Source: a virus (lineage: Duplodnaviria; Caudoviricetes). From it: a stretch of DNA of 56,698 nucleotides. The notes below the pieces were generated by a model. It ran no database searches, was not told where the DNA came from, and saw nothing but the letters and a program-made list of their open reading frames with translations. Location of the stretch: the IMG/VR virus record IMGVR_UViG_3300048574_000080, positions 1 through 56,698 of that record; one strand, given 5' to 3'. Of this stretch, positions 26,685 through 56,698 are shown in pieces (the stretch's first letter is position 1; the number at the start of each line of letters is the position of its first letter). A program made the position numbers and the translations under genes.

Positions 26685-28817
26685 CTATGCTGTCTCTCTA
26701 GGCCCCTGCACAGTGCCGAGGCCGCTTGTTCCCACTGTACTGCCAACTGCATCCGGCCCTTGCACATCGCCAAGGCCGCCGCTGCCCGTTGCCCTGCCTG
26801 TGTCGCCCGGCCCGGCAACCCGGCCAAACGTCGCCACCCACATGATCACACCCACCGCCGTCAGCGTGTTGCCAATCTGCAGCACATCGAGCGCGCCGTG
26901 TATATCCATCGCCGCCTCAATGTAGCCCGCCGCCGCCAACGTCTGCCCAGCCTGCGTGATCGCTGCGTCACCGACGATGGCGACTGTGCCGGCGCTGGCC
27001 AGCGCATCACCCGCCTGCGTTGCAGCCAGTGCGCCCGCCACTGCAACCACGCCCGCGGTTACGATGCCCTGTGCTGCCTGCGTAAGCACCGCTGCGCCCG
27101 TCACGAGTGCGGCGGCGGTACTGGACAGCGTGTTGCTATCCTGCGTGATTGCCAGGCTGCCTGTCGCACTTGCGCCGCTTGTGGCGGTCAGCGTGTTGGC
27201 GGCCTGGGTGAGGGTCGCCGCACCGACAATGGCAACCGCCCCGGACGCCGTAACTGTCTGCCCAGCCTGCGTGATGGCCGCCGCGCCGACGATGGTCACC
27301 GTACCCGCGGCTGCGACGGTGTTGCCCGCCTGTGTCACACTGAGTGCACCGGCGACCGCGACCACGCCCGCCGCCGCTACCGTCTGCGCCGCCTGGGTGA
27401 GTGCGGCATCCCCGACGATGGGCACGCTGCCAACCGTACCGGATGCGTCTAGCGCCTGCGCCGCCTGGGTGATGGCAGCCGCACCGACGATGGCTGCAAC
27501 GCCCACACTTGCCAGCGTATTGCCCGCCTGGGTCACACTGAGCGCACCCGCTACCGCAACCACGCCCGCAGCGCTGATGGTGTTGCCGGCCAGCGTCTTG
27601 GACAGGTCGCCGGCCACGGCAGCGACACCAGCAGCAGCCAGTGTGTTGGCCGCGTGGGTTGCGCTGAGTGTACCGGCGACCGCAACCACACCCGCGGCGG
27701 TCAGCGTTTGCGCCGCCTGCGTAATCGCCGCATCGCCCGTGATAGCCGTGACGTTGACCGTGCCGGCCGCTGACAGCGTGTTACCTGCCTGCGTCTTGGC
27801 GAGCACACCGACGACAGCTACAACGCCGGCACTACTGACAGTCTGCGCCGCTTGGGTAGCGTTGACCGTGCCTACAACCGCCGCTGTACCTGTAGCGGAA
27901 ACCGTCTGTGCCGTCTGCGTCTTAGTCAGCGCCCCAACAACGGTCACGGCGCCTGTACTGGCTAGCGTGTTGCCCGCCTGGGTCTTGGCGAGCGCACCGA
28001 TGATTGTCACGGCGCCGGCACTGACGATTGTCTGTGCAGCCTGTGTCTTGGTGAGGGCGCCTACAACCGTCACCGTACCCGCGGCGCTGATGGTGTTGCC
28101 GGCCTGGGTTGCAGTGAGCGTACCCGTTGCGCCGGATGACGCTACTGTGCCCGCCGCACTGATTGTCTGCGCCGCCTGCGTAATGGACGCGTCGCCGGTG
28201 CGGATGGGCGCAATGGCGAACGTGTGCGTCGTCCAGTATGACGATGCCTGCGTTGTCGAGACACCCGTATCCGTGCCGGCGCTAGTCAGCGTCTTGTACT
28301 GAATCGACAGAGTGCCGGCCGAAGCCGCGGCGTTCGTAACTAGCAGCGTGTGCCCGCCGAACGTGCCAACTGGCGTGCGGTCGGTTGAGTCGGCAATAAT
28401 GCTGAAACGCAGGCAGTCGGCCACAGTCGTAACCAGGTCACCAACTGCCGGCGCACTGGTTGACCCGTTGGCGCTGACCACGGTGACGTTAAAGCCACCG
28501 TCGCCGCTGACAATCCACGCCACCATCACGGCGCGTTCGGACACGTCGGACGTTACGGTGTAAGTAGTGCCGCTTGCCGTCTTCTTCCATATGCTGACGG
28601 AGCCGCTATCCGCAACGCCGCTGGCAGGTATGGTGTAGTTGTTGACAACTGCGGTCCAGTTCGAGCCATCGATACTAGGCGTGCCCGCATCGGCGTCGTC
28701 CGCATAGGCCACATACAGCACATCGCCCGCGCTGAACGTGGGCACGCTGATGGCCAGCGTTGTGCCATTCGTGGTCCGCTGTGCTGTAGTATACGCGCCG
28801 AGCGTTGGTGCGGTCAC
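26685..28817 (-). CDS. Repetitive beta-rich tail fibre-like protein
   Basis: About 20 tandem 21-24 aa repeats TQA[GA][NQ]T[LIV]xAxGxVx[VI]xGx[LA]. Confidence 0.7.
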   Translation of the reverse strand: MTAPTLGAYTTAQRTTNGTTLAISVPTFSAGDVLYVAYADDADAGTPSIDGSNWTAVVNNYTIPASGVADSGSVSIWKKTASGTTYTVTSDVSERAVMVAWIVSGDGGFNVTVVSANGSTSAPAVGDLVTTVADCLRFSIIADSTDRTPVGTFGGHTLLVTNAAASAGTLSIQYKTLTSAGTDTGVSTTQASSYWTTHTFAIAPIRTGDASITQAAQTISAAGTVASSGATGTLTATQAGNTISAAGTVTVVGALTKTQAAQTIVSAGAVTIIGALAKTQAGNTLASTGAVTVVGALTKTQTAQTVSATGTAAVVGTVNATQAAQTVSSAGVVAVVGVLAKTQAGNTLSAAGTVNVTAITGDAAITQAAQTLTAAGVVAVAGTLSATHAANTLAAAGVAAVAGDLSKTLAGNTISAAGVVAVAGALSVTQAGNTLASVGVAAIVGAAAITQAAQALDASGTVGSVPIVGDAALTQAAQTVAAAGVVAVAGALSVTQAGNTVAAAGTVTIVGAAAITQAGQTVTASGAVAIVGAATLTQAANTLTATSGASATGSLAITQDSNTLSSTAAALVTGAAVLTQAAQGIVTAGVVAVAGALAATQAGDALASAGTVAIVGDAAITQAGQTLAAAGYIEAAMDIHGALDVLQIGNTLTAVGVIMWVATFGRVAGPGDTGRATGSGGLGDVQGPDAVGSTVGTSGLGTVQGPRETA

Positions 28818-50223: not shown

Positions 50224-50620
50224 GTGGCGCCTCCGATTGATCCTGCGTCGCGGCTGCTTCCTGCTGCTCAACGTCTAGGCCGGACAATGCTTTTTCGAAT
50301 TCTGCGACTGCGGCGGCCGCCAAGTCGGCATCTATTTCGTCAGGCGTAGCAGCCTTGATGTCAGCGATAAGCTTGCGCAGCGACGCAACGAACGAATCAA
50401 TTGACGGGGGCGGGGTCTGGCCTTTTTCGGCAAGGGGTGGGGGAGTGAAGGTCACGAAGTAAGCATACGCCTTTTCGAGTTCAGTTATGGTCACGGCGTA
50501 AACGCGGTCCAGCTCCGTGCGGTTGCTGGGCTTGTGCGCCTTGGCTGTGCGAATTGCTGAGACAATCGCTGCCGCCACTTCCGCGTCTTCTGTTTCCAGC
50601 CTGGGTGGTCTAAGTATCAT
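50207..50620 (-). CDS. Hypothetical protein between terminase and portal
   Basis: ATGA overlap; DRVYAVTITELEKAYAYF. Confidence 0.5.
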   Translation of the reverse strand: MILRPPRLETEDAEVAAAIVSAIRTAKAHKPSNRTELDRVYAVTITELEKAYAYFVTFTPPPLAEKGQTPPPSIDSFVASLRKLIADIKAATPDEIDADLAAAAVAEFEKALSGLDVEQQEAAATQDQSEAPHAHHS

Positions 50621-52173
50621 CCAAACATCTCCTGTATCGTCGCCTGACTCGTTACCTGTGCCGGCGCTGTGGCCACCTGTCCCGCCTCCTGCCAGCGAAT
50701 GATTGCCTGTGTAAATGCGTCCACGTCGTCGTCGTGTGCGGCGTTGGGGAAGGACGCCGCGCTGCCTATGAACCGTCCCACCCAGGGCGCTATGAGCGGG
50801 TGCGGGAGATACACGTTGCCTGATTCCACCTCGGGCGCTGCGGCGTAGGCTCGGGATGTTTTGCCGCCCTTGGGATCGACCGCAATCAACCCGGCAATCT
50901 CCTTGTGCAGCATCTGGATGACCGCCGGCCCATTAGCCTTATCCTCGATAAGGATGGCGATGGCTTTGGGCCACTTGATGCGCCACGACCGGATTGCCTC
51001 CATTGTGGCCACGATGCCCAGTCGCTCACACACGTAGTCGAGCAGAAACTTGTCGGCTCCCAGCCTGCCCACGACCTGGCCGGCAACGAAGTCACTGGCG
51101 GCCGTGTCCTTGAACGTGCAGTCCCACGATTGCAGCAGCTCGTCGAACCGGGCGGGCAGATCTACCGCTTCTACCTCCACAACCGACGAATCCGCCATCG
51201 TGACGGTGACCGGCGGGAGATTTGCCCCTCGTGGTTGCCAGTAGCGCCAGTGGTGCCGCTTGAAGATCTCGCCCTCATCCGGTGAGGGCCGCTGCTGGTA
51301 GAGGCTTGCCCAGTCACGGGAGCCAACGGTTCGTTCGATGGTCCGCAGTTTGTCGATACCCCAACGATTCTCCCATAGCGCTTTGCCTGCCACGTGGCGC
51401 TCGTCATAGGGCGCCACAGGGTCCTCCGATAGCGCCGGCAGAATCAGCGTTACCCACTGGTCCGACTCTGGGTCAGACTTGGCGAGCGCCAGCAGCCGAC
51501 CCGCCAGGTCATCTTCATGCCAACGAGTGACGGTCAGCAGCACTTGCCCGTCAGGCGTCAAACGGGTGTAGAGGGTGGAGGTGTACCAGTCAAAGACGGA
51601 TTCGCGGTAGGTGGGGCTGTTGGCCTCTTTCCGGTTCTTGACCGGATCGTCAATAATGGCCACGTGCGCCCCGGAACCAGTCACGCTGCCTCCGACGCCT
51701 GTCCCCAGGTAGTAGCCACGATGGCCTACGACCTCAAACATATCGGAGTTGCGCAGCCAGGAGCCCTGCGAAACGGTGCGCACGTTGGCGCCGAACAATT
51801 TCGACTCAGGGAACAGCCGGTGGTATTCGTCGCCATCCATGATGCGCTGCACGTCCCGGTTCATGCGCCTGGCTAGGTCGGCGCCGTAGCTGGTGGCAAT
51901 GATTGTTGTGTCCGGTCGCTTACCCAGGATGAACGCGGGCAGACGCCGTGACACTAGCTCCGACTTGCCAGAACGTGGCGGTGCGAAAATCATCAGCCGC
52001 GTAATTTCGCCCGCTACAAATCTATCTAGATAGGAGCAAATCAACTGGTGATGCCAGTTGCCGGCATAGTCTGGGTAGGTGTAGCATGTGAAGTCAAGCA
52101 GATGATTGCGGGCACGCCGTCTATTCCGCAGCTCTTGCGCCGCTTCTACTAAGTATGATTCGCTCAAGCTCAC
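50617..52173 (-). CDS. terL: Terminase large subunit
   Basis: PPRSGKS, IIDDPVK, TRWHEDDL, SWDCTFK, IEDKANG, HDDDVDA. Confidence 0.95.
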   Translation of the reverse strand: MSLSESYLVEAAQELRNRRRARNHLLDFTCYTYPDYAGNWHHQLICSYLDRFVAGEITRLMIFAPPRSGKSELVSRRLPAFILGKRPDTTIIATSYGADLARRMNRDVQRIMDGDEYHRLFPESKLFGANVRTVSQGSWLRNSDMFEVVGHRGYYLGTGVGGSVTGSGAHVAIIDDPVKNRKEANSPTYRESVFDWYTSTLYTRLTPDGQVLLTVTRWHEDDLAGRLLALAKSDPESDQWVTLILPALSEDPVAPYDERHVAGKALWENRWGIDKLRTIERTVGSRDWASLYQQRPSPDEGEIFKRHHWRYWQPRGANLPPVTVTMADSSVVEVEAVDLPARFDELLQSWDCTFKDTAASDFVAGQVVGRLGADKFLLDYVCERLGIVATMEAIRSWRIKWPKAIAILIEDKANGPAVIQMLHKEIAGLIAVDPKGGKTSRAYAAAPEVESGNVYLPHPLIAPWVGRFIGSAASFPNAAHDDDVDAFTQAIIRWQEAGQVATAPAQVTSQATIQEMFG

Positions 52174-52552
52174 TGTCCGTCAGTTCTTGCACGCGCTGCA
52201 CGTATTCCAGCGGCCCGCCATCCTTGCCCGTTACTTCCTGTACGCGCTTGCCCCACCGGTCTGGGTAGCGCCGCTCTAGGTACCACGCATCAGCCTGCCA
52301 GTTGCCGGCCCTGCCGGCCCTGTTGATGCGGCTGACGCGCAGGGCTTCCGCTTCCGCCTCCGCCTTTTTTACTGCCTCAAGAAACTCAACATAGGCACCA
52401 GATGACGCCTGCTCGCCTTTCTTCATCCAGTTGTTGAGCGTAGTGTATGTAACCCCACCGATCGCCGCCGCCGTCTCCAGGTAGTTACCTTCGGCGATGG
52501 CGTCGACGATCTTCTTTTGCGTCTCAGGCGTTAGCTTGCTCTGGCGTGCCAT
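52121..52552 (-). CDS. terS: Terminase small subunit
   Basis: KLTPE..., WQADAWYLERRYP, TGKDGGP; directly upstream of terL. Confidence 0.8.
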   Translation of the reverse strand: MARQSKLTPETQKKIVDAIAEGNYLETAAAIGGVTYTTLNNWMKKGEQASSGAYVEFLEAVKKAEAEAEALRVSRINRAGRAGNWQADAWYLERRYPDRWGKRVQEVTGKDGGPLEYVQRVQELTDSELERIILSRSGARAAE

Positions 52553-53102
52553 CGCAATCGCCCTCCTGCAGCCAGGGGTACAACTTCAGTTCGTAGGCAA
52601 TGGCGACCAGGTCGCGCAGCAATGCGTGCAATTCGTCCGCTAGCGGCTGGTACTTTGCCTTCTTCCTCGGTGGCGGCTTCGACACGATTTCGAGAAGTTG
52701 CAGCCAACGCTCGTACGGCAACTGATAGGTGCGATAGGTGTCGAATCGATGCTCTACGTCGTTGTGGATACGGTTGACAAGCCGATGACCTTCAGCCTTC
52801 AGTTTGTCGATCCATCGTCGTTCGGCTTCAAATCTGTTTGCCGCCGTTGTCACTTCGAGCGTGTCGCAGACGATGTTGTCGGCTCCGTACTTCTTGACTG
52901 TGTTGGCGAAGTGAGTATTTGAGTGTGTGCCGCTTTCCACGGCATAGAGGTGGGCGGCGAGACGGTGTTCTGACAGATACTTGGAGCATCCAACATAGAA
53001 GTAGCGATCCGAATCGGTGTGCCGCAAGCCGTAGACGTACCCTGCACCCGCCAGGGCCATGACCTGCGCCTTGATTTCGTCGCTGTACTCCCGCCGCACC
53101 AT
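52524..53102 (-). CDS. GIY-YIG endonuclease
   Basis: GYVYGL...FYVGCS...RLAAH...EAERRWI...LVN. Confidence 0.8.
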   Translation of the reverse strand: MVRREYSDEIKAQVMALAGAGYVYGLRHTDSDRYFYVGCSKYLSEHRLAAHLYAVESGTHSNTHFANTVKKYGADNIVCDTLEVTTAANRFEAERRWIDKLKAEGHRLVNRIHNDVEHRFDTYRTYQLPYERWLQLLEIVSKPPPRKKAKYQPLADELHALLRDLVAIAYELKLYPWLQEGDCDGTPEQANA

Positions 53103-53647: not shown

Positions 53648-54766
53648 CTACTGATGTGTAAATTCAGCCCAGCCCAGGTTCTTGCCTGCACTGGCCCCAC
53701 TGGGCACCGGATAGGATGTGCCATACAACGCATTGATCACGGCAGGCTGCCAGCTGTCGTCGCCGCTCGGCGGCCACTTGGCGACATCATAGGCCCACTT
53801 GACGGAGCGCAGGTGCGCCTGGTCGCACCAGGACTTGGCAGGCAGGCCTGCGTTTTCTAGCACCTGGATCGTTGCCGTGATGCCCTGTTCCGCCTCCCAG
53901 TAGTAGTCCGTCTTGCCCGGTGGCCACGTAAAGCCCCCGGCCCGGCGCAGCTCCTCGGGCAGGGAACCATCGACGGGATGGCCTTGGATGGTAGCACCCT
54001 TGGGATTGATGCCAACGGGGTGCGCGGGGTCGCTCTGCCAGTCGAGTTCGCCATAGGTAAAGCCGCTGTAGGCGGCCCGATCACCCAGGAAGCCTTTGAA
54101 CACCTGGACGGCGCGGGCCAGCTCGGCATCGTCGCCGATGTAGCGGGCGATCATCACGCGGGCGCAGCTGGCGTGCGTGCCCCAGTTGTTGGGCCGCTGC
54201 TCTTGCGATTTGACCAACGATGCGGGACCGCCGCCCGATGTGGGACAGGTCAGGAAGTAGCGCAGCTTGTCGCTGAAAGCGGCGTCCAGGTCAGGATCAA
54301 CCATCCACAGTTCGATGCCTTCGGCGGCGGCGATGTAGCCGGGCACTTCACGCGCGAGAGCCAGCGCACGGCCGATCTTGAGTGAAGGGCTGACGATGGC
54401 GCGCAGGCCGGCGAGGACACGATTCAGGAAGAAGGTATCTCCAGTGCAGGCGTAGACGTAGGCGTTGGCCTGCATGTTGGTGTTGTGCTTGGAGTCCTGA
54501 TTCTCTACGCTGGGCGTGCCGGGGTCCGCCTTCGCAGCTTTGAACATGGCTTCCCAGGCGGGGCCGCTCTGCGTCTTCTTGCGCAGCGCCTCCACGTCCA
54601 CCCAGATGCAACCGGCCGGCACAGGCTCAGGGTCGGGATCTGGAGGAGGCGGCGGTGGGGGTGGAGGTGGTGGCGGGTCCGTCACCGTGACGATCTCCAG
54701 CGGGTCGCCCAACTCGGACGCAATGACGATCTTCCCATCGATACTGGTTACTGTAACCTTGGTCAT
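53648..54766 (-). CDS. Alginate-lyase-like protein, copy 2
   Basis: Poly-Pro linker; RALALARE, RPNNWGTHA, PEELRR. Confidence 0.55.
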   Translation of the reverse strand: MTKVTVTSIDGKIVIASELGDPLEIVTVTDPPPPPPPPPPPPDPDPEPVPAGCIWVDVEALRKKTQSGPAWEAMFKAAKADPGTPSVENQDSKHNTNMQANAYVYACTGDTFFLNRVLAGLRAIVSPSLKIGRALALAREVPGYIAAAEGIELWMVDPDLDAAFSDKLRYFLTCPTSGGGPASLVKSQEQRPNNWGTHASCARVMIARYIGDDAELARAVQVFKGFLGDRAAYSGFTYGELDWQSDPAHPVGINPKGATIQGHPVDGSLPEELRRAGGFTWPPGKTDYYWEAEQGITATIQVLENAGLPAKSWCDQAHLRSVKWAYDVAKWPPSGDDSWQPAVINALYGTSYPVPSGASAGKNLGWAEFTHQ

Positions 54767-55126: not shown

Positions 55127-55166
55127 AAGAAAAAGAAAACCGAGAGCATCGCGCTCCCGGTTTCTT
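55127..55166 (-). terminator. Rho-independent terminator closing the pentamer-array transcript
   Basis: AAGAAACCGGGAGC-GCGAT-GCTCTCGGTTTTCTT-TTTCTT. Confidence 0.85.
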
Positions 55167-55170
55167 ACTG

Positions 55171-55258
55171 CCCTCGCCTAGCCGTGCCACACCAAGCCAA
55201 GCCTGGCCTCGCCACGCATTGCCAAGCCGTGCCGAGCCTAGCCTAGCCATGCACAGCC
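55171..55258 (-). ncRNA. GGY-NN pentamer array 3 (17 units), candidate guide RNA
   Basis: Strict 5-nt phase; constant GGC (GGT/TGC variants); ends GGG-CA. Confidence 0.75.
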
Positions 55259-55260
55259 AA

Positions 55261-55304
55261 TCGTGGTGGGCGGAGTCGAACCGCCCCACAGACCATCGCC
55301 ACGA
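55261..55304 (-). ncRNA. tRNA-like minihelix spacer 2
   Basis: TCGTGG/CCACGA closing stem, ATGGT linker, GGGCGG-TTCGACT-CCGCCC T-arm. Confidence 0.7.
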
Positions 55305-55309
55305 AACTA

Positions 55310-55407
55310 CCCTTGCAATGCCTTGCCAAGCCCTGCCGAGCCCAGCCACGCCGCACCCAGCCGGGCCGAGCCCCGACTCGCCCTGCCGTGCCCCGACTTG
55401 CCCTGCC
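55310..55407 (-). ncRNA. GGY-NN pentamer array 2 (19 units), candidate guide RNA
   Basis: Strict 5-nt phase; GGC (GGT/GTC/TGC variants); ends AA-GGG-TA. Confidence 0.75.
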
Positions 55408-55409
55408 AA

Positions 55410-55454
55410 AACGGCGGGCGGGAATCGAACCCACCCAATGCACCATGCGCCGTT
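55410..55454 (-). ncRNA. tRNA-like minihelix spacer 1
   Basis: AACGGC/GCCGTT closing stem, ATGGT linker, GGGTGGG-TTCGATT-CCCGCCC T-arm. Confidence 0.7.
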
Positions 55455-55460
55455 GTGGTA

Positions 55461-55543
55461 CCCTTGCCTTGCCTTGCCGGGCCCAGCCAGGCCGCTCCCG
55501 GCCTCGCCTTGCCTTGCCCCGCCACGCTCTGCCTGGCCGCGCC
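55461..55543 (-). ncRNA. GGY-NN pentamer array 1 (16 units), candidate guide RNA
   Basis: Begins 1 nt after the RAMP-like stop codon; strict 5-nt phase; ends AA-GGG-TA. Confidence 0.75.
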
Positions 55544-55544
55544 G

Positions 55545-56099
55545 CTAAATATCGAAACCAGACAACTGGTACCGACCATACATGGGGCGAAACGTGCCTA
55601 GCCCCAACGTGCCGCCCATGTCGAATGCCTGCCGCAAGTTCTCCAGTGTGCAGAACTTGTTTTCGATATACTCGACAGTGAAGTCAAGCCGCCAAGGGAG
55701 CGCCAGAACCGGACGCTCCTTTGGGTTAGGGATACCGCCCTTGACGCGGGCGACATGCTTGGCTTGGCTGATCTGCCCGTTCCAGCCAGTGAAACGGATC
55801 GGGCCGCTGTCGTCACGAATGGGAATATCGAACGGGTCGATCGCCGTGTAGCTGCTAATCCCCAAGGCGATCGTCTTGCCGTTCCTCCCGAAGAACTGGC
55901 GGCACACTGACTTGGTGTTCTCCGCTACGAGCAACGAAAGAATATTTAGGGCGGGCATCATGAGCGCCCCATCCTTGCCGAGATACATCTTCTCCGCTAC
56001 GGGCAACTGTGTGTTGTTGTCGCCCGCGTACCGGTCGAACATCAAAGGGCGAAGCCCCTCCAACCGCACCGTAATAATCGTTTTGTCCTGCATTGCCAT
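55545..56099 (-). CDS. Stand-alone RAMP/Cas7-like protein (184 aa)
   Basis: AAGGAG RBS; ITVRLEGLRPLMF, YLGKDGALMMPALNI, ERPVLALPWRLDFTVEY, C-terminal Gly-rich loop GGTLGLGTFRPMYGRY. Confidence 0.75.
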   Translation of the reverse strand: MAMQDKTIITVRLEGLRPLMFDRYAGDNNTQLPVAEKMYLGKDGALMMPALNILSLLVAENTKSVCRQFFGRNGKTIALGISSYTAIDPFDIPIRDDSGPIRFTGWNGQISQAKHVARVKGGIPNPKERPVLALPWRLDFTVEYIENKFCTLENLRQAFDMGGTLGLGTFRPMYGRYQLSGFDI

Positions 56100-56343
56100 T
56101 GTCAAACTCCTTTGCCTTGTCAGGCGGAATCTCGAACCACTCAGCGCCGCCATCCGTCCTATACTGCCAGTATCGGCGGTGTAAGTCGGCTTCTGTCGCT
56201 TCGTTGCCCTCGACTGTCGCAACCACCTCAAGCCGACGCGGGCAGGCTGTTTGTAATTCAGCCAGCCGCCAAAGAACATCCTCCCGCGAGGTGTAGCCTA
56301 TCTTGTAATAGTCTGTCCCTGCCATCCTCAAGAAGTAGACCAT
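55855..56343 (-). CDS. T5orf172/MUG113-type GIY-YIG-like protein
   Basis: VYFL...YKIGYT...RLAELQTACP...EADLH...EWFEI; GAGG RBS; C-terminal half overlaps the RAMP-like gene. Confidence 0.8.
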   Translation of the reverse strand: MVYFLRMAGTDYYKIGYTSREDVLWRLAELQTACPRRLEVVATVEGNEATEADLHRRYWQYRTDGGAEWFEIPPDKAKEFDNGNAGQNDYYGAVGGASPFDVRPVRGRQQHTVARSGEDVSRQGWGAHDARPKYSFVARSGEHQVSVPPVLREERQDDRLGD

Positions 56344-56487: not shown

Positions 56488-56530
56488 AGTATACAACATG
56501 AGGTGATATTTTTCAACTTAAATATCACTT
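56488..56530 (-). promoter_or_regulatory. Sigma70-type promoter with overlapping operator-like inverted repeat
   Basis: TTGAAA-17 nt-TATACT; AGGTGATATT-N10-AATATCACTT straddles the -35 box. Confidence 0.75.
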
Positions 56531-56559: not shown

Positions 56560-56685
56560 GAAGAGGGGAAGCTTTCGCCTCCCCTCTTTCGCCACTTTCG
56601 CCTTACGCCTATGAAACCGGACTGCGCCGTACCCGATCAGTTGGGACTCGGTGCGTCCACGTATCGATCTACTTCAACCCAGCCC
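56560..56685. repeat. Terminal direct repeat, right copy
   Basis: Identical to 1-126. Confidence 0.95.
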
Positions 56686-56698
56686 CCCCCCCCCCGGG

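What the first reader, a model, noticed from the sequence alone, without database searches (positions are those of the whole stretch)
55261..55454. tRNA-mimic minihelices punctuate the arrays: probable host RNase P/Z processing signals
Seen: two 44-45-nt spacers differ in stem sequence but share one architecture. Each has a 6-bp closing stem, a linker with ATGGT (D-loop-like GG), and a 6-7-bp stem with a canonical T-loop (TTCGATT or TTCGACT). The 3' strand is followed after 2 nt (TT) by the next GGC. There is no anticodon arm. The differing but paired stems amount to internal covariation. Established: RNase P and RNase Z recognise the acceptor stem/T-arm elbow and cut such mimics. Inference: host tRNA-processing enzymes replace Cas6 in releasing individual guides.
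Basis: partly seen in the sequence, partly recalled or inferred. Interest (0 to 1): 0.85.

Follow-up and report, generated by a model that had tools for sequence, protein, structure and literature searches.

The report
tRNA-like minihelices punctuating phage VIPR guide arrays
A phage guide-RNA array of the recently described VIPR type is interrupted by small RNA hairpins that copy the corner of a transfer RNA, probably so that the host's own tRNA-trimming enzymes cut the array into single guides.

Summary
On the minus strand, 55166-55545 holds three arrays of 17-21 NNGGC pentamers. They are separated by two 44-46-nt minihelices (55410-55455, 55261-55304) and closed by an intrinsic terminator.

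The arrays are vrRNA arrays of a VIPR system, described in 2026 bioRxiv preprints. The 185-aa gene just upstream (55545-56102, minus) is a Vipr homologue: its family profile hits only 'SUSP1 Vipr protein' in the PDB (E 1.5e-10), and its model has a Cas7-like fold.

The minihelix is a real, covarying RNA element. A covariance model found 74 copies in 30 sources (29 viral contigs and the window), and 73 of 74 lie next to NNGGY arrays. About 92% of stem cells pair (about 59% in shuffles), and 12 of 13 pairs show compensatory change. The near-invariant positions match the tRNA elbow: G-TTCRA-NN-C T-loop, a linker GG, and an 11-13-bp stack. None encodes CCA, and none of 54 real tRNAs matches the model.

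Cleavage by RNase P and RNase Z is plausible but not shown, because no RNA ends could be obtained. A retained 3' cap is the main rival. 'tRNA' is absent from three VIPR preprints and 'tRNA-like' from the fourth. I rate this a new variant of a known kind.

The parts
56488..56516 (-). Promoter-like site (TTGAAA, 17 nt, TATACT) upstream of the operon
   Evidence: 10 of 12 consensus matches. It is 1 site found against 1.0 expected in shuffles, so this is only a candidate.
55855..56343 (-). ORF with a MUG113/T5orf172 domain (aa 13-79), upstream of vipr. Its frame runs on over the vipr start. Possible accessory (vap-like) gene.
   Evidence: ORF; PF13455, E 5.4e-15; PF10544, E 1.3e-07. A role as vap was not tested.
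55545..56102 (-). vipr gene: 185-aa RAMP (Cas7-like) protein, a homologue of the SUSP1 Vipr protein
   Evidence: the family profile hits only PDB 36pp_D 'SUSP1 Vipr protein', E 1.5e-10; the single sequence gives E 0.49. AF2 pLDDT 97.2; top Foldseek hits are Cmr4/Csm3/type VII Cas7, E from 6e-06; phrog_4652, unknown function; no Pfam family.
55456..55545 (-). vrRNA array 1: 17 NNGGC units starting right after the vipr stop codon, ending AAGGG TACCA
55410..55455 (-). tRNA-like minihelix a: 6-7-bp acceptor-like stem, 12-nt linker with YGG, 6-7-bp stem, loop TTCGATT
   Evidence: Model R1 gives 48.4 bits, E 5.4e-08. Sub-threshold Rfam T-arm matches to tRNA-Sec and YrlA.
55305..55409 (-). vrRNA array 2: 21 units (TTGGC ... 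AAGGG TAGTT)
   Evidence: In a metatranscriptome contig of a relative, 94 bases within this array (window 55305-55398) are replaced by a different 90-nt stretch, while the sequence on either side, both minihelices included, matches (X19 record 9).
55261..55304 (-). tRNA-like minihelix b: TCGTGG/CCACGA stem, linker with ATGGT, GGGCGG/CCGCCC stem, loop TTCGACT
   Evidence: R1 gives 53.1 bits, E 4e-09. Sub-threshold tmRNA T-arm match.
55166..55260 (-). vrRNA array 3: 19 units ending GAGGG CAGTA. No minihelix follows it.
55127..55164 (-). Intrinsic terminator: 13-pair hairpin followed by CTTTTTCTT
   Evidence: sequence

Best explanation
The locus is a phage VIPR system. One minus-strand transcript carries a T5orf172-domain gene, vipr, three vrRNA guides made of NNGGC pentamers, and a terminator.

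The two minihelices are minimal mimics of the tRNA 'top half': an acceptor-like stem stacked on a T-arm, with a linker GG placed to dock on the T-loop as G18-G19 do in a tRNA elbow.

I propose that they recruit the host's tRNA end-processing enzymes to cut the polycistronic transcript at guide boundaries. RNase P would cut at the 5' side of the acceptor-like stem (predicted 55455|55454 and 55305|55304). RNase Z, or an equivalent 3' pathway, would cut after the discriminator (predicted 55409|55408 and 55260|55259), leaving the next guide starting one base before its first GGC.

Whether both cuts occur (minihelix excised) or only the 3' cut (minihelix kept as a cap on the upstream guide) is open.

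Shown: the anatomy, the covariation, the tRNA-elbow invariants, the tie to VIPR arrays, and the Vipr homology. Inferred: transcription as one unit, and every cleavage.
For: 1. System identity.
- Pentamer arrays.
- The Vipr family profile has a single PDB hit, 'SUSP1 Vipr protein', E 1.5e-10.
- Cas7-like fold.
- The published description of vrRNAs as YNNGG repeats followed by a tail.

2. A conserved structure.
- 13 copies: 92.3% paired against 55.1% in shuffles, and 11 of 13 pairs compensatory.
- 74 copies: 91.6% against 58.7%.

3. What stays fixed is the tRNA elbow.
- Linker GG in 74 of 74.
- G53 74, T54 74, T55 72, C56 74, R57 74, A58 71 and C61 74, each of 74.
- All 17 copies from loci not chosen by a T-loop pattern read GTTCGANNC.
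- The acceptor plus T stack is 11-13 bp in 71 of 74; a tRNA has 12 (recalled).

4. Position. 73 of 74 copies lie within 120 nt of an NNGGY array, and 53 lie between two arrays.

5. Not needed for Vipr loading in this clade, if these guides work. Window array 3, the last array of L121 (Vipr 75% identical) and the only array of L122 (73%) have no minihelix.

6. Independent of Vipr lineage. The adjacent Vipr relatives range from 100, 75, 66 and 38% identity to partial 25-40% matches or none found. That fits recognition by a universal host factor.

7. Precedent for the slot. The preprint reports hammerhead ribozymes between vrRNAs, confirmed by sRNA-seq.

8. Precedent for the enzymes.
- RNase P measures from the elbow along the T-stem/acceptor stack and needs a T-loop-like loop (passages).
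- RNase Z (ELAC2) reads the T-loop and the G19-C56 pair (passages).
- Engineered tRNA-like 't-elements' flanking a crRNA give Cas6-independent maturation by RNase P and RNase Z in Haloferax (passages).

9. No encoded CCA in 0 of 74. This fits RNase Z-type substrates (that RNase Z prefers CCA-less precursors is recalled).
Against: There is no RNA-end evidence.
- The runs laid were contigs of relatives.
- The one raw-read run laid 0 reads.
- Presence in RNA libraries does not prove transcription.

In the sample not biased by my T-loop pattern, 5 of 8 array clusters end with a minihelix, and two of them (L028, L111) have a single array. The element therefore behaves as a 3' tail, like the pseudoknot tail that stays on SUSP1 vrRNA, and not only as a separator.

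Array 1 in the window starts directly after the vipr stop codon with no minihelix. At least one guide end must therefore be made in another way.

The lack of a 3' CCA removes one RNase P contact (pairing with L15/P15).

The stack length varies from 11 to 13 bp, and 40 of 74 copies have only 5 acceptor pairs.

The host is unknown, so the presence of RNase Z is not established.

Single-sequence folding is only weakly better than shuffles.

The larger alignment was fitted to the model, and many of its loci were picked with an exact GGTTCGANNCC pattern.
Confidence: 0.55

Rival explanations
1. The minihelix is simply this clade's version of the vrRNA 3' tail. It would be a compact, nuclease-resistant cap that stays on the guide, bounds or nucleates the Vipr filament, and protects the 3' end. 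Guide release would be done by other nucleases, or by trimming of RNA that Vipr does not protect. The T-loop would be used as a general RNA stabilising module, not as a signal for tRNA enzymes.
For: Published SUSP1 vrRNAs keep a structured tail of about 40 nt. [quoted passage not shown]

The minihelix has the same size and position. It follows single arrays (L028, L111) and last arrays (L003, L023, L116).

Other loci carry unrelated hairpin or pseudoknot-like tails at the same place. This suggests a generic need for a stable structure there.
Against: It does not explain why the fixed positions are the tRNA-elbow set (GG, G53-C61, TTCRA), nor why the stack is held at 11-13 bp.

Close relatives and the window itself have guides without the element.

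The element occurs beside very divergent Vipr proteins, which argues against a co-evolved protein handle.
Confidence: 0.3
2. The released or embedded minihelices act on host tRNA biology. They might be decoys for tRNA-directed defence nucleases, or for modification or CCA-adding enzymes, with guide processing only a side effect.
For: The copies are faithful elbow mimics and occur several times per locus, up to 7 in L249 and L256.
Against: 73 of 74 copies are tied to vrRNA arrays. There is no anticodon arm, which is the usual target of such nucleases (that point is recalled). Nothing in the neighbourhood points to tRNA metabolism.
Confidence: 0.07
3. The minihelices are remnants of tRNA genes or of tRNA-derived attachment sites, and have no function in the array.
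For: T-arm-only resemblance. ARAGORN makes odd tRNA calls over 3 of 74 copies.
Against: Both stems keep pairing through compensatory changes in 29 viral contigs and the window. The copies alternate regularly with arrays. Both acceptor strands are present with a fixed short linker, unlike an att core. None of 54 real tRNAs in three phage tRNA clusters matches the model.
Confidence: 0.03

Closest known systems
VIPR systems (Vipr protein plus vrRNA); bioRxiv 10.64898/2026.04.26.720920, .720927 and 2026.10.15.759431
   Same: A phage-encoded small RAMP protein lies next to tandem GGY/NN pentamer guides, each followed by a structured element. The arrays follow the gene.
   Different: The element after the guide is a tRNA-like acceptor/T-arm minihelix. 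It is not the SUSP1 pseudoknot tail, a hammerhead ribozyme or a staggered junction. The guides are longer than the 9-16 units reported (17-21). The word 'tRNA' occurs 0 times in the three texts. I could not open supplementary data files or figures.
tRNA punctuation and tRNA-like processing elements: Haloferax t-elements/icrRNA (PMC6546412); mitochondrial tRNA punctuation, MALAT1 mascRNA, herpesvirus tRNA-miRNA units and synthetic tRNA-gRNA arrays (all four recalled)
   Same: A tRNA-shaped module placed between functional RNAs so that RNase P and RNase Z release them. The engineered Haloferax case does this for a CRISPR guide.
   Different: This would be a natural bacterial-virus case for guide RNAs. 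It uses a 40-46-nt module with no D-stem and no anticodon arm. Cleavage has not been demonstrated.
tRNA-like domains of tmRNA and of bacterial Y RNA (YrlA)
   Same: An acceptor stem plus T-arm, with a D-loop substitute and no anticodon arm. The only Rfam models that touch the minihelices are tRNA-Sec, YrlA and tmRNA, through their T-arms.
   Different: All these matches are far below the gathering score (8.8-16.7 bits against 47-70). The two strands of the closing stem are joined by only a 12-nt linker plus the T-arm. No tag-coding or Ro-binding part is present.
CRISPR repeat plus Cas6
   Same: A structured element between guides marks where the precursor is cut. The effector subunit is a Cas7-like RAMP.
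   Different: There is no dedicated nuclease gene in the locus, the element is not a CRISPR repeat, and guide recognition is non-contiguous.

Membership tests
VIPR system | Vipr protein: a small RAMP homologue encoded next to the RNA | tested here: met
   The profile of 83 relatives hits only PDB 36pp_D 'SUSP1 Vipr protein', E 1.5e-10. The model (pLDDT 97.2) matches Cas7-family chains at E from 6e-06.
VIPR system | vrRNA made of tandem pentamers with fixed GGY and variable NN | tested here: met
   Of 58 units, G is at position 3 in 53, G at position 4 in 53, and C at position 5 in 49. Positions 1-2 are mixed. The phase is exact within each array.
VIPR system | Conserved 3' extension (tail) after the repeat tract | tested here: met
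   Each array ends RAGGG plus 5-6 nt, then a minihelix (arrays 1 and 2) or the terminator hairpin (array 3). The same end motif, GAGGGCTGTA, occurs in Burkholderia phage vB_E436.
VIPR system | Accessory vap gene | tested here: inconclusive
   A MUG113/T5orf172-domain ORF lies upstream. It was not compared with the published vap1-6.
VIPR system | RNP formation and DNA targeting by the 1-nt skip rule | tested here: inconclusive
   A script scan of the window and 438 held loci (own-genome locus L203 left out) found no target above noise under any skip rule. Best scores were 23/34, 25/40 and 23/36 at skip 1, the same as at skips 0 and 2. Public collections were not scanned. Binding is not testable here.
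Genuine tRNA gene | Cloverleaf with D-arm and anticodon arm, called by tRNA finders | tested here: not met
   ARAGORN finds 0 genes in the window. Rfam finds 0 at gathering score. The best sub-threshold hit is tRNA-Sec at 16.7 bits against 47. Only 12 nt lie between the closing stem and the T-stem.
tRNA-like processing element (t-element / punctuation type) | Acceptor-like stem stacked on a T-stem, about 12 bp in all | tested here: met
   The stack is 11-13 bp in 71 of 74 copies (31 with 11, 25 with 12, 15 with 13).
tRNA-like processing element (t-element / punctuation type) | T-loop consensus with the G53-C61 closing pair, and a GG able to form the elbow | tested here: met
   G53, T54, C56, R57 and C61 in 74 of 74. 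T55 in 72, A58 in 71. Linker GG in 74 of 74.
tRNA-like processing element (t-element / punctuation type) | Cleavage by RNase P and/or RNase Z at its ends | not testable with these tools
   The only RNA data were contigs without end information, and a raw-read run with 0 reads laid.
Hammerhead-interspersed VIPR array | Self-cleaving ribozyme between guides | tested here: not met
   No Rfam family reaches gathering score in the window. None was found in 18 other array loci either.
tmRNA / YrlA tRNA-like domain | Match to the family model | tested here: not met
   YrlA 14.1 bits against 69. cyano_tmRNA 8.8 bits against 70. Both match the T-arm only.

The most novel reading that the evidence does not exclude
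Phage VIPR systems from widely divergent Vipr lineages hand guide maturation to the universal host tRNA-processing machinery. They do this by inserting 40-46-nt tRNA-elbow mimics at guide boundaries. This would be a natural counterpart of the synthetic tRNA-gRNA and t-element designs. It would make a guide array work in any host without a dedicated nuclease. It would also answer how vrRNAs are cut out, which the main texts of the VIPR preprints that I searched do not explain.
Probability: 0.5. Interest if true: 0.75.

Novelty: new variant of a known kind. Interest (0 to 1): 0.62.

Why it matters
VIPR is a newly reported RNA-guided DNA-recognition system, proposed to be older than CRISPR. In the preprint texts I could search, how its guides are matured is addressed only for ribozyme-containing arrays.

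A tRNA-mimic route would add a third kind of guide biogenesis beside a dedicated nuclease (Cas6) and a self-cleaving ribozyme. That third kind is a module borrowed from the host's housekeeping RNA processing.

It also gives a compact natural part of 40-46 nt, with a clear consensus, for multiplexing guides. The prediction is directly testable at four named phosphodiester bonds.

The 74 copies and the covariance model provide a starting family for annotation.

Tried and rejected
Readings considered and rejected:
- Protein-coding reading of the array: rejected. The period is 5 nt, every frame is open only by composition, and the tract is a vrRNA array.
- TRAP-like or other ring-protein sponge RNA, my first idea: dropped once the VIPR papers and the Vipr homology were found.
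- Real tRNA, tmRNA or Y RNA: not met.
- tRNA-derived att site: rejected on covariation and alternation.

Searches that gave nothing usable:
- GenBank phages: no close relative of the locus. The DNA query gave one 52-bp hit. The protein query gave one hit, Burkholderia phage vB_E436, at 40.7%.
- Rfam on 18 other array loci, looking for hammerheads: none. The ribozyme architecture therefore rests on the preprint alone.
- Target search by the 1-nt skip rule in held sequences: nothing above noise, and no self-target.
These are chance matches of ordinary tRNA genes beside GC-rich DNA. This is no evidence of absence from cellular genomes.
- Sequencing runs: the stretch or relatives occur in activated-sludge and wastewater runs. 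Laying 4 runs gave contigs of relatives only, no ends, and 0 reads from the raw-read run. This is no evidence on expression or processing.
- Single-sequence folding z-scores are weak.

Not available:
Data S4 and figs S16-S19 of the first preprint may show array types that I could not see.

Full report
**What is there**

The feature reads on the minus strand of the window. A 185-aa ORF (56102-55545) ends in TAG and is followed at once by three tracts of exact 5-nt period:
- 55545-55456: 17 NNGGC units
- 55409-55305: 21 units
- 55260-55166: 19 units

Over 58 units, positions 3, 4 and 5 are G (53), G (53) and C (49). Positions 1-2 are mixed. Each tract ends in a variant unit RAGGG plus 5-6 nt: AAGGGTACCAC, AAGGGTAGTT and GAGGGCAGTA.

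After the third tract comes a 13-pair hairpin with a U-run (55164-55127). A promoter-like site lies at 56516-56488 (one found, one expected by chance). This lag-5 GGC array is the only one in the window. The window is an IMG/VR virus record, estimated 55% complete. It has terminase genes at 50617-52552 and no close relative among GenBank phages.

**The observation**

Both spacers have the architecture described. Each has a 6-7-bp closing stem, a 12-nt linker containing ATGGT, a 6-7-bp stem and a 7-nt loop (TTCGATT or TTCGACT). Each is followed by TT and the first GGC of the next tract.

ARAGORN calls no tRNA, and Rfam gives nothing at gathering score. In permissive mode the matches on the two spacers are to T-arms of tRNA-Sec (16.7 bits), YrlA (14.1) and a tmRNA (8.8), all far below threshold. 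Two further sub-threshold matches, to unrelated families, fall elsewhere in the stretch. Folding each copy alone is only weakly better than shuffles (z -2.0 and -1.05). The case therefore rests on comparison with other loci.

**What the arrays are**

A literature search for pentanucleotide repeats in phages returned a 2026 bioRxiv preprint, 10.64898/2026.04.26.720920. I read its outline, Results, Discussion, one Methods section and found passages. It describes VIPR systems:
- A small phage-encoded RAMP protein, Vipr, polymerises on vrRNAs.
- vrRNAs are made of 9-16 YNNGG repeats followed by a conserved 3' tail of about 40 nt.
- The NN dinucleotides read DNA with a one-base skip.

Three further preprints mention vrRNAs. 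I read found passages only. Searching 'vrRNA' alone finds 8 papers, of which 6 were listed; four of those are on VIPR.

The window's ORF belongs to this family:
- It has 863 relatives (E up to 0.001) among the 972 candidates scored by the word-index search; none of the 120 listed carries a functional name ('-' or 'hypothetical protein').
- It has 249 cluster representatives.
- A profile of 83 of them has one PDB hit, 36pp_D 'SUSP1 Vipr protein', E 1.5e-10. The single sequence gives E 0.49.
- The AlphaFold model (pLDDT 97.2) matches Cas7-family subunits Cmr4, Csm3 and type VII (E from 6e-06).

The Foldseek library predates the Vipr structures.

**The minihelix as a family**

Homologous loci show the same element with different stems.
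- L121 (Vipr 75% identical) has five arrays and four minihelices.
- L122 (73%) has one array, no minihelix and a terminator.

In 203 sources gathered by array pattern or by Vipr homology, 199 have an array of at least 6 units. Among 305 short separators, 10 in 5 sources carry GTTCRANNC.

Thirteen copies from those 5 sources align to a 7-bp plus 6-bp structure:
- 92.3% of 169 cells pair, against 55.1% in shuffles (0 of 500 reach it).
- Pairing is 43-52% when the partner is slid by 1-3 columns.
- 11 of 13 pairs change on both sides.
- The pair closing the loop is G-C in 13 of 13.

A covariance model built from them (R1) was run over the window and L001-L199. It found the 13 training copies, plus new ones in L003 and L111, partial matches in L028/L187/L191, one isolated hit in L116 (4909-4958) and two weak matches in L174 (E about 0.75).

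Of the 235 new loci, 30 had the motif beside an array of at least 8 units. All 30 were viral, and 0 of the 120 genome loci qualified.

R1 over 38 sources (387,015 bases) gave 74 matches at E up to 0.1, in 30 sources. On that alignment, which is fitted to the model:
- 91.6% of 912 cells pair, against 58.7% in shuffles.
- 12 of 13 pairs are compensatory.

Three of these loci hold real phage tRNA clusters (54 tRNAs and one tmRNA by ARAGORN), and none matched R1. Three of the 74 minihelices fall inside odd ARAGORN calls.

**What is conserved**

Across the 74 copies:
- Linker GG: 74 of 74, preceded by a pyrimidine in 72.
- G53 74, T54 74, T55 72, C56 74, R57 74, A58 71, C61 74.

The 17 copies from loci that were not picked with a T-loop pattern all read GTTCGANNC.

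adds:
- The acceptor-like plus T stack is 11, 12 or 13 bp in 31, 25 and 15 copies (71 of 74).
- The base after the stem is A in 42.
- The commonest trailer is ACGC (23 copies).
- None of the 74 encodes CCA.

These are the features of the tRNA elbow and of the acceptor/T-arm helix. The stems themselves vary freely.

**Position relative to guides**

Of the 74 copies, 73 lie within 120 nt of an array:
- 53 lie between two arrays.
- 13 follow an array only.
- 7 precede an array only.
- 1 stands alone.

Of 34 array clusters, 23 end with an array and 11 end with a minihelix. This is biased, because most of these loci were chosen for 'minihelix then array'. Among the 8 clusters from the unbiased first sample, 3 end with an array (window, L121, L004) and 5 end with a minihelix (L003, L023, L028, L111, L116). 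L028 and L111 have a single array. The element therefore sits where the published tail sits and is not strictly an inter-guide separator.

In the window's own Vipr clade the shared array end is the short motif RAGGGNNGTA. This motif is also present in the single vrRNA of Burkholderia phage vB_E436, whose Vipr is 40.7% identical. Guides without a minihelix exist in this clade: window array 3, the last array of L121, and L122.

The Vipr genes beside minihelix arrays are very diverse:
- 100, 75, 66 and 38% identity to the window's
- only 25-40% partial matches in most others
- none found in 7 of 30

Other loci use quite different punctuation: 6-7-nt motifs, hairpins, and double hairpins.

**Mechanism**

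I commit to the processing model at 0.55. The minihelix presents a tRNA top half, so host RNase P cuts at its 5' side and RNase Z or an equivalent pathway cuts after the discriminator.

Support from the literature (passages read):
- RNase P clamps the T-stem/acceptor stack, measures from the elbow, and needs a T-loop-like loop while the D-loop is dispensable (PMC4919913).
- RNase Z (human ELAC2) reads the T-loop and the G19-C56 pair on the acceptor/T-arm minihelix (PMC11996679).
- tRNA-like t-elements flanking a crRNA give Cas6-independent maturation by these two enzymes in Haloferax (PMC6546412).
- The VIPR preprint itself reports hammerhead ribozymes in the inter-guide slot. A cleavage module at this place therefore has precedent.

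The main rival (0.3) is that the element is a retained cap, like the SUSP1 pseudoknot. A hybrid, with only the 3' cut and the cap retained, is included in my best explanation.

No cleavage is shown. The RNA-library data laid on the locus are contigs of relatives. One metatranscriptome contig keeps the sequence on both sides, the two minihelices included, while replacing 94 bases within array 2 (window 55305-55398) with a different 90-nt stretch. That fits conserved punctuation around variable guides, but it says nothing about ends or even about transcription.

**Novelty**

The arrays and the protein are already known from the 2026 preprints. Their texts, including the printed supplementary figure legends of the first, contain 'tRNA' 0 times in three of them and 'tRNA-like' 0 times in the fourth. 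A five-term search (tRNA-like, RNase P, guide RNA, phage, array) returned 7 papers; none of the listed titles or abstract openings describes a natural case, and I read passages of only one of them, PMC6546412.

I therefore rate the minihelix-punctuated array as a new variant of a known kind. The comparisons with mitochondrial tRNA punctuation, mascRNA, herpesvirus tRNA-miRNA units and synthetic tRNA-gRNA arrays are recalled and come from no call.

Noticed in passing
window 55456-55466, 55305-55315, 55166-55176 (minus); L121 3659-3668; L439 about 2440-2452: Every array in this Vipr clade ends with a variant unit RAGGG followed by NNGTA-like bases (AAGGGTACCAC, AAGGGTAGTT, GAGGGCAGTA, GAGGGAAGTA, GAGGGCTGTA). 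It is conserved down to a 40.7%-identical Vipr in Burkholderia phage vB_E436. It may be the real clade-specific 3' handle or a filament stop.
   Followed up: partly
window 55855-56343 (minus): The MUG113/T5orf172-domain ORF has no stop until 55855, so it overlaps the vipr start (56102) by about 248 nt in another frame. This could be a true overlap, a candidate vap gene, or a frameshift in the assembly.
   Followed up: no
L010 1994-2351; L040 5697-6000; L112 467-955; L024 2144-2427; L054 and L075: Other VIPR-like arrays use quite different punctuation: 6-nt GTTCAG/GTTCAC/GTTCAA, ACCGCA, TACCTCA(G), 40-nt hairpins, and single-base phase slips (GGCaGGC). The phase slips may be the 'staggered' arrays of the preprint.
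   Followed up: partly
L080 (minus-strand coordinates 2289-2674): The separators here look like terminator hairpins followed by TTGAC-type promoter boxes. Each guide may be its own transcription unit.
   Followed up: no
trailers after minihelices in L215, L220, L247, L256, L282 and others: The 4 nt after the closing stem are ACGC in 23 of 74 copies and GCGC in 8. This is a conserved trailer that would become the 5' end of the next guide.
   Followed up: partly
runs X13, X19 and X20: Wastewater RNA-library contigs of relatives share the minihelices but carry different arrays. One loose end shows a further stem variant (GGGTGG/CCACCC) with the same loop.
   Followed up: partly
window 56680-56698: The record ends in a run of 13 C followed by GGG. 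This is probably an assembly or library artefact.
   Followed up: no
window 53648-54766 (minus): A 372-aa ORF with a run of 12 prolines and a weak alginate-lyase match (E 8e-05), next to a holin-like 107-aa ORF. It may be a depolymerase or lysis-region protein.
   Followed up: no
window 52524-53102 (minus): A GIY-YIG homing-endonuclease-like ORF (phrog_314, E 1e-09) sits just upstream of the small terminase gene.
   Followed up: no
window 27903-28073: A 63-nt tandem repeat, 2.7 copies, 70% matches. Not examined.
   Followed up: no
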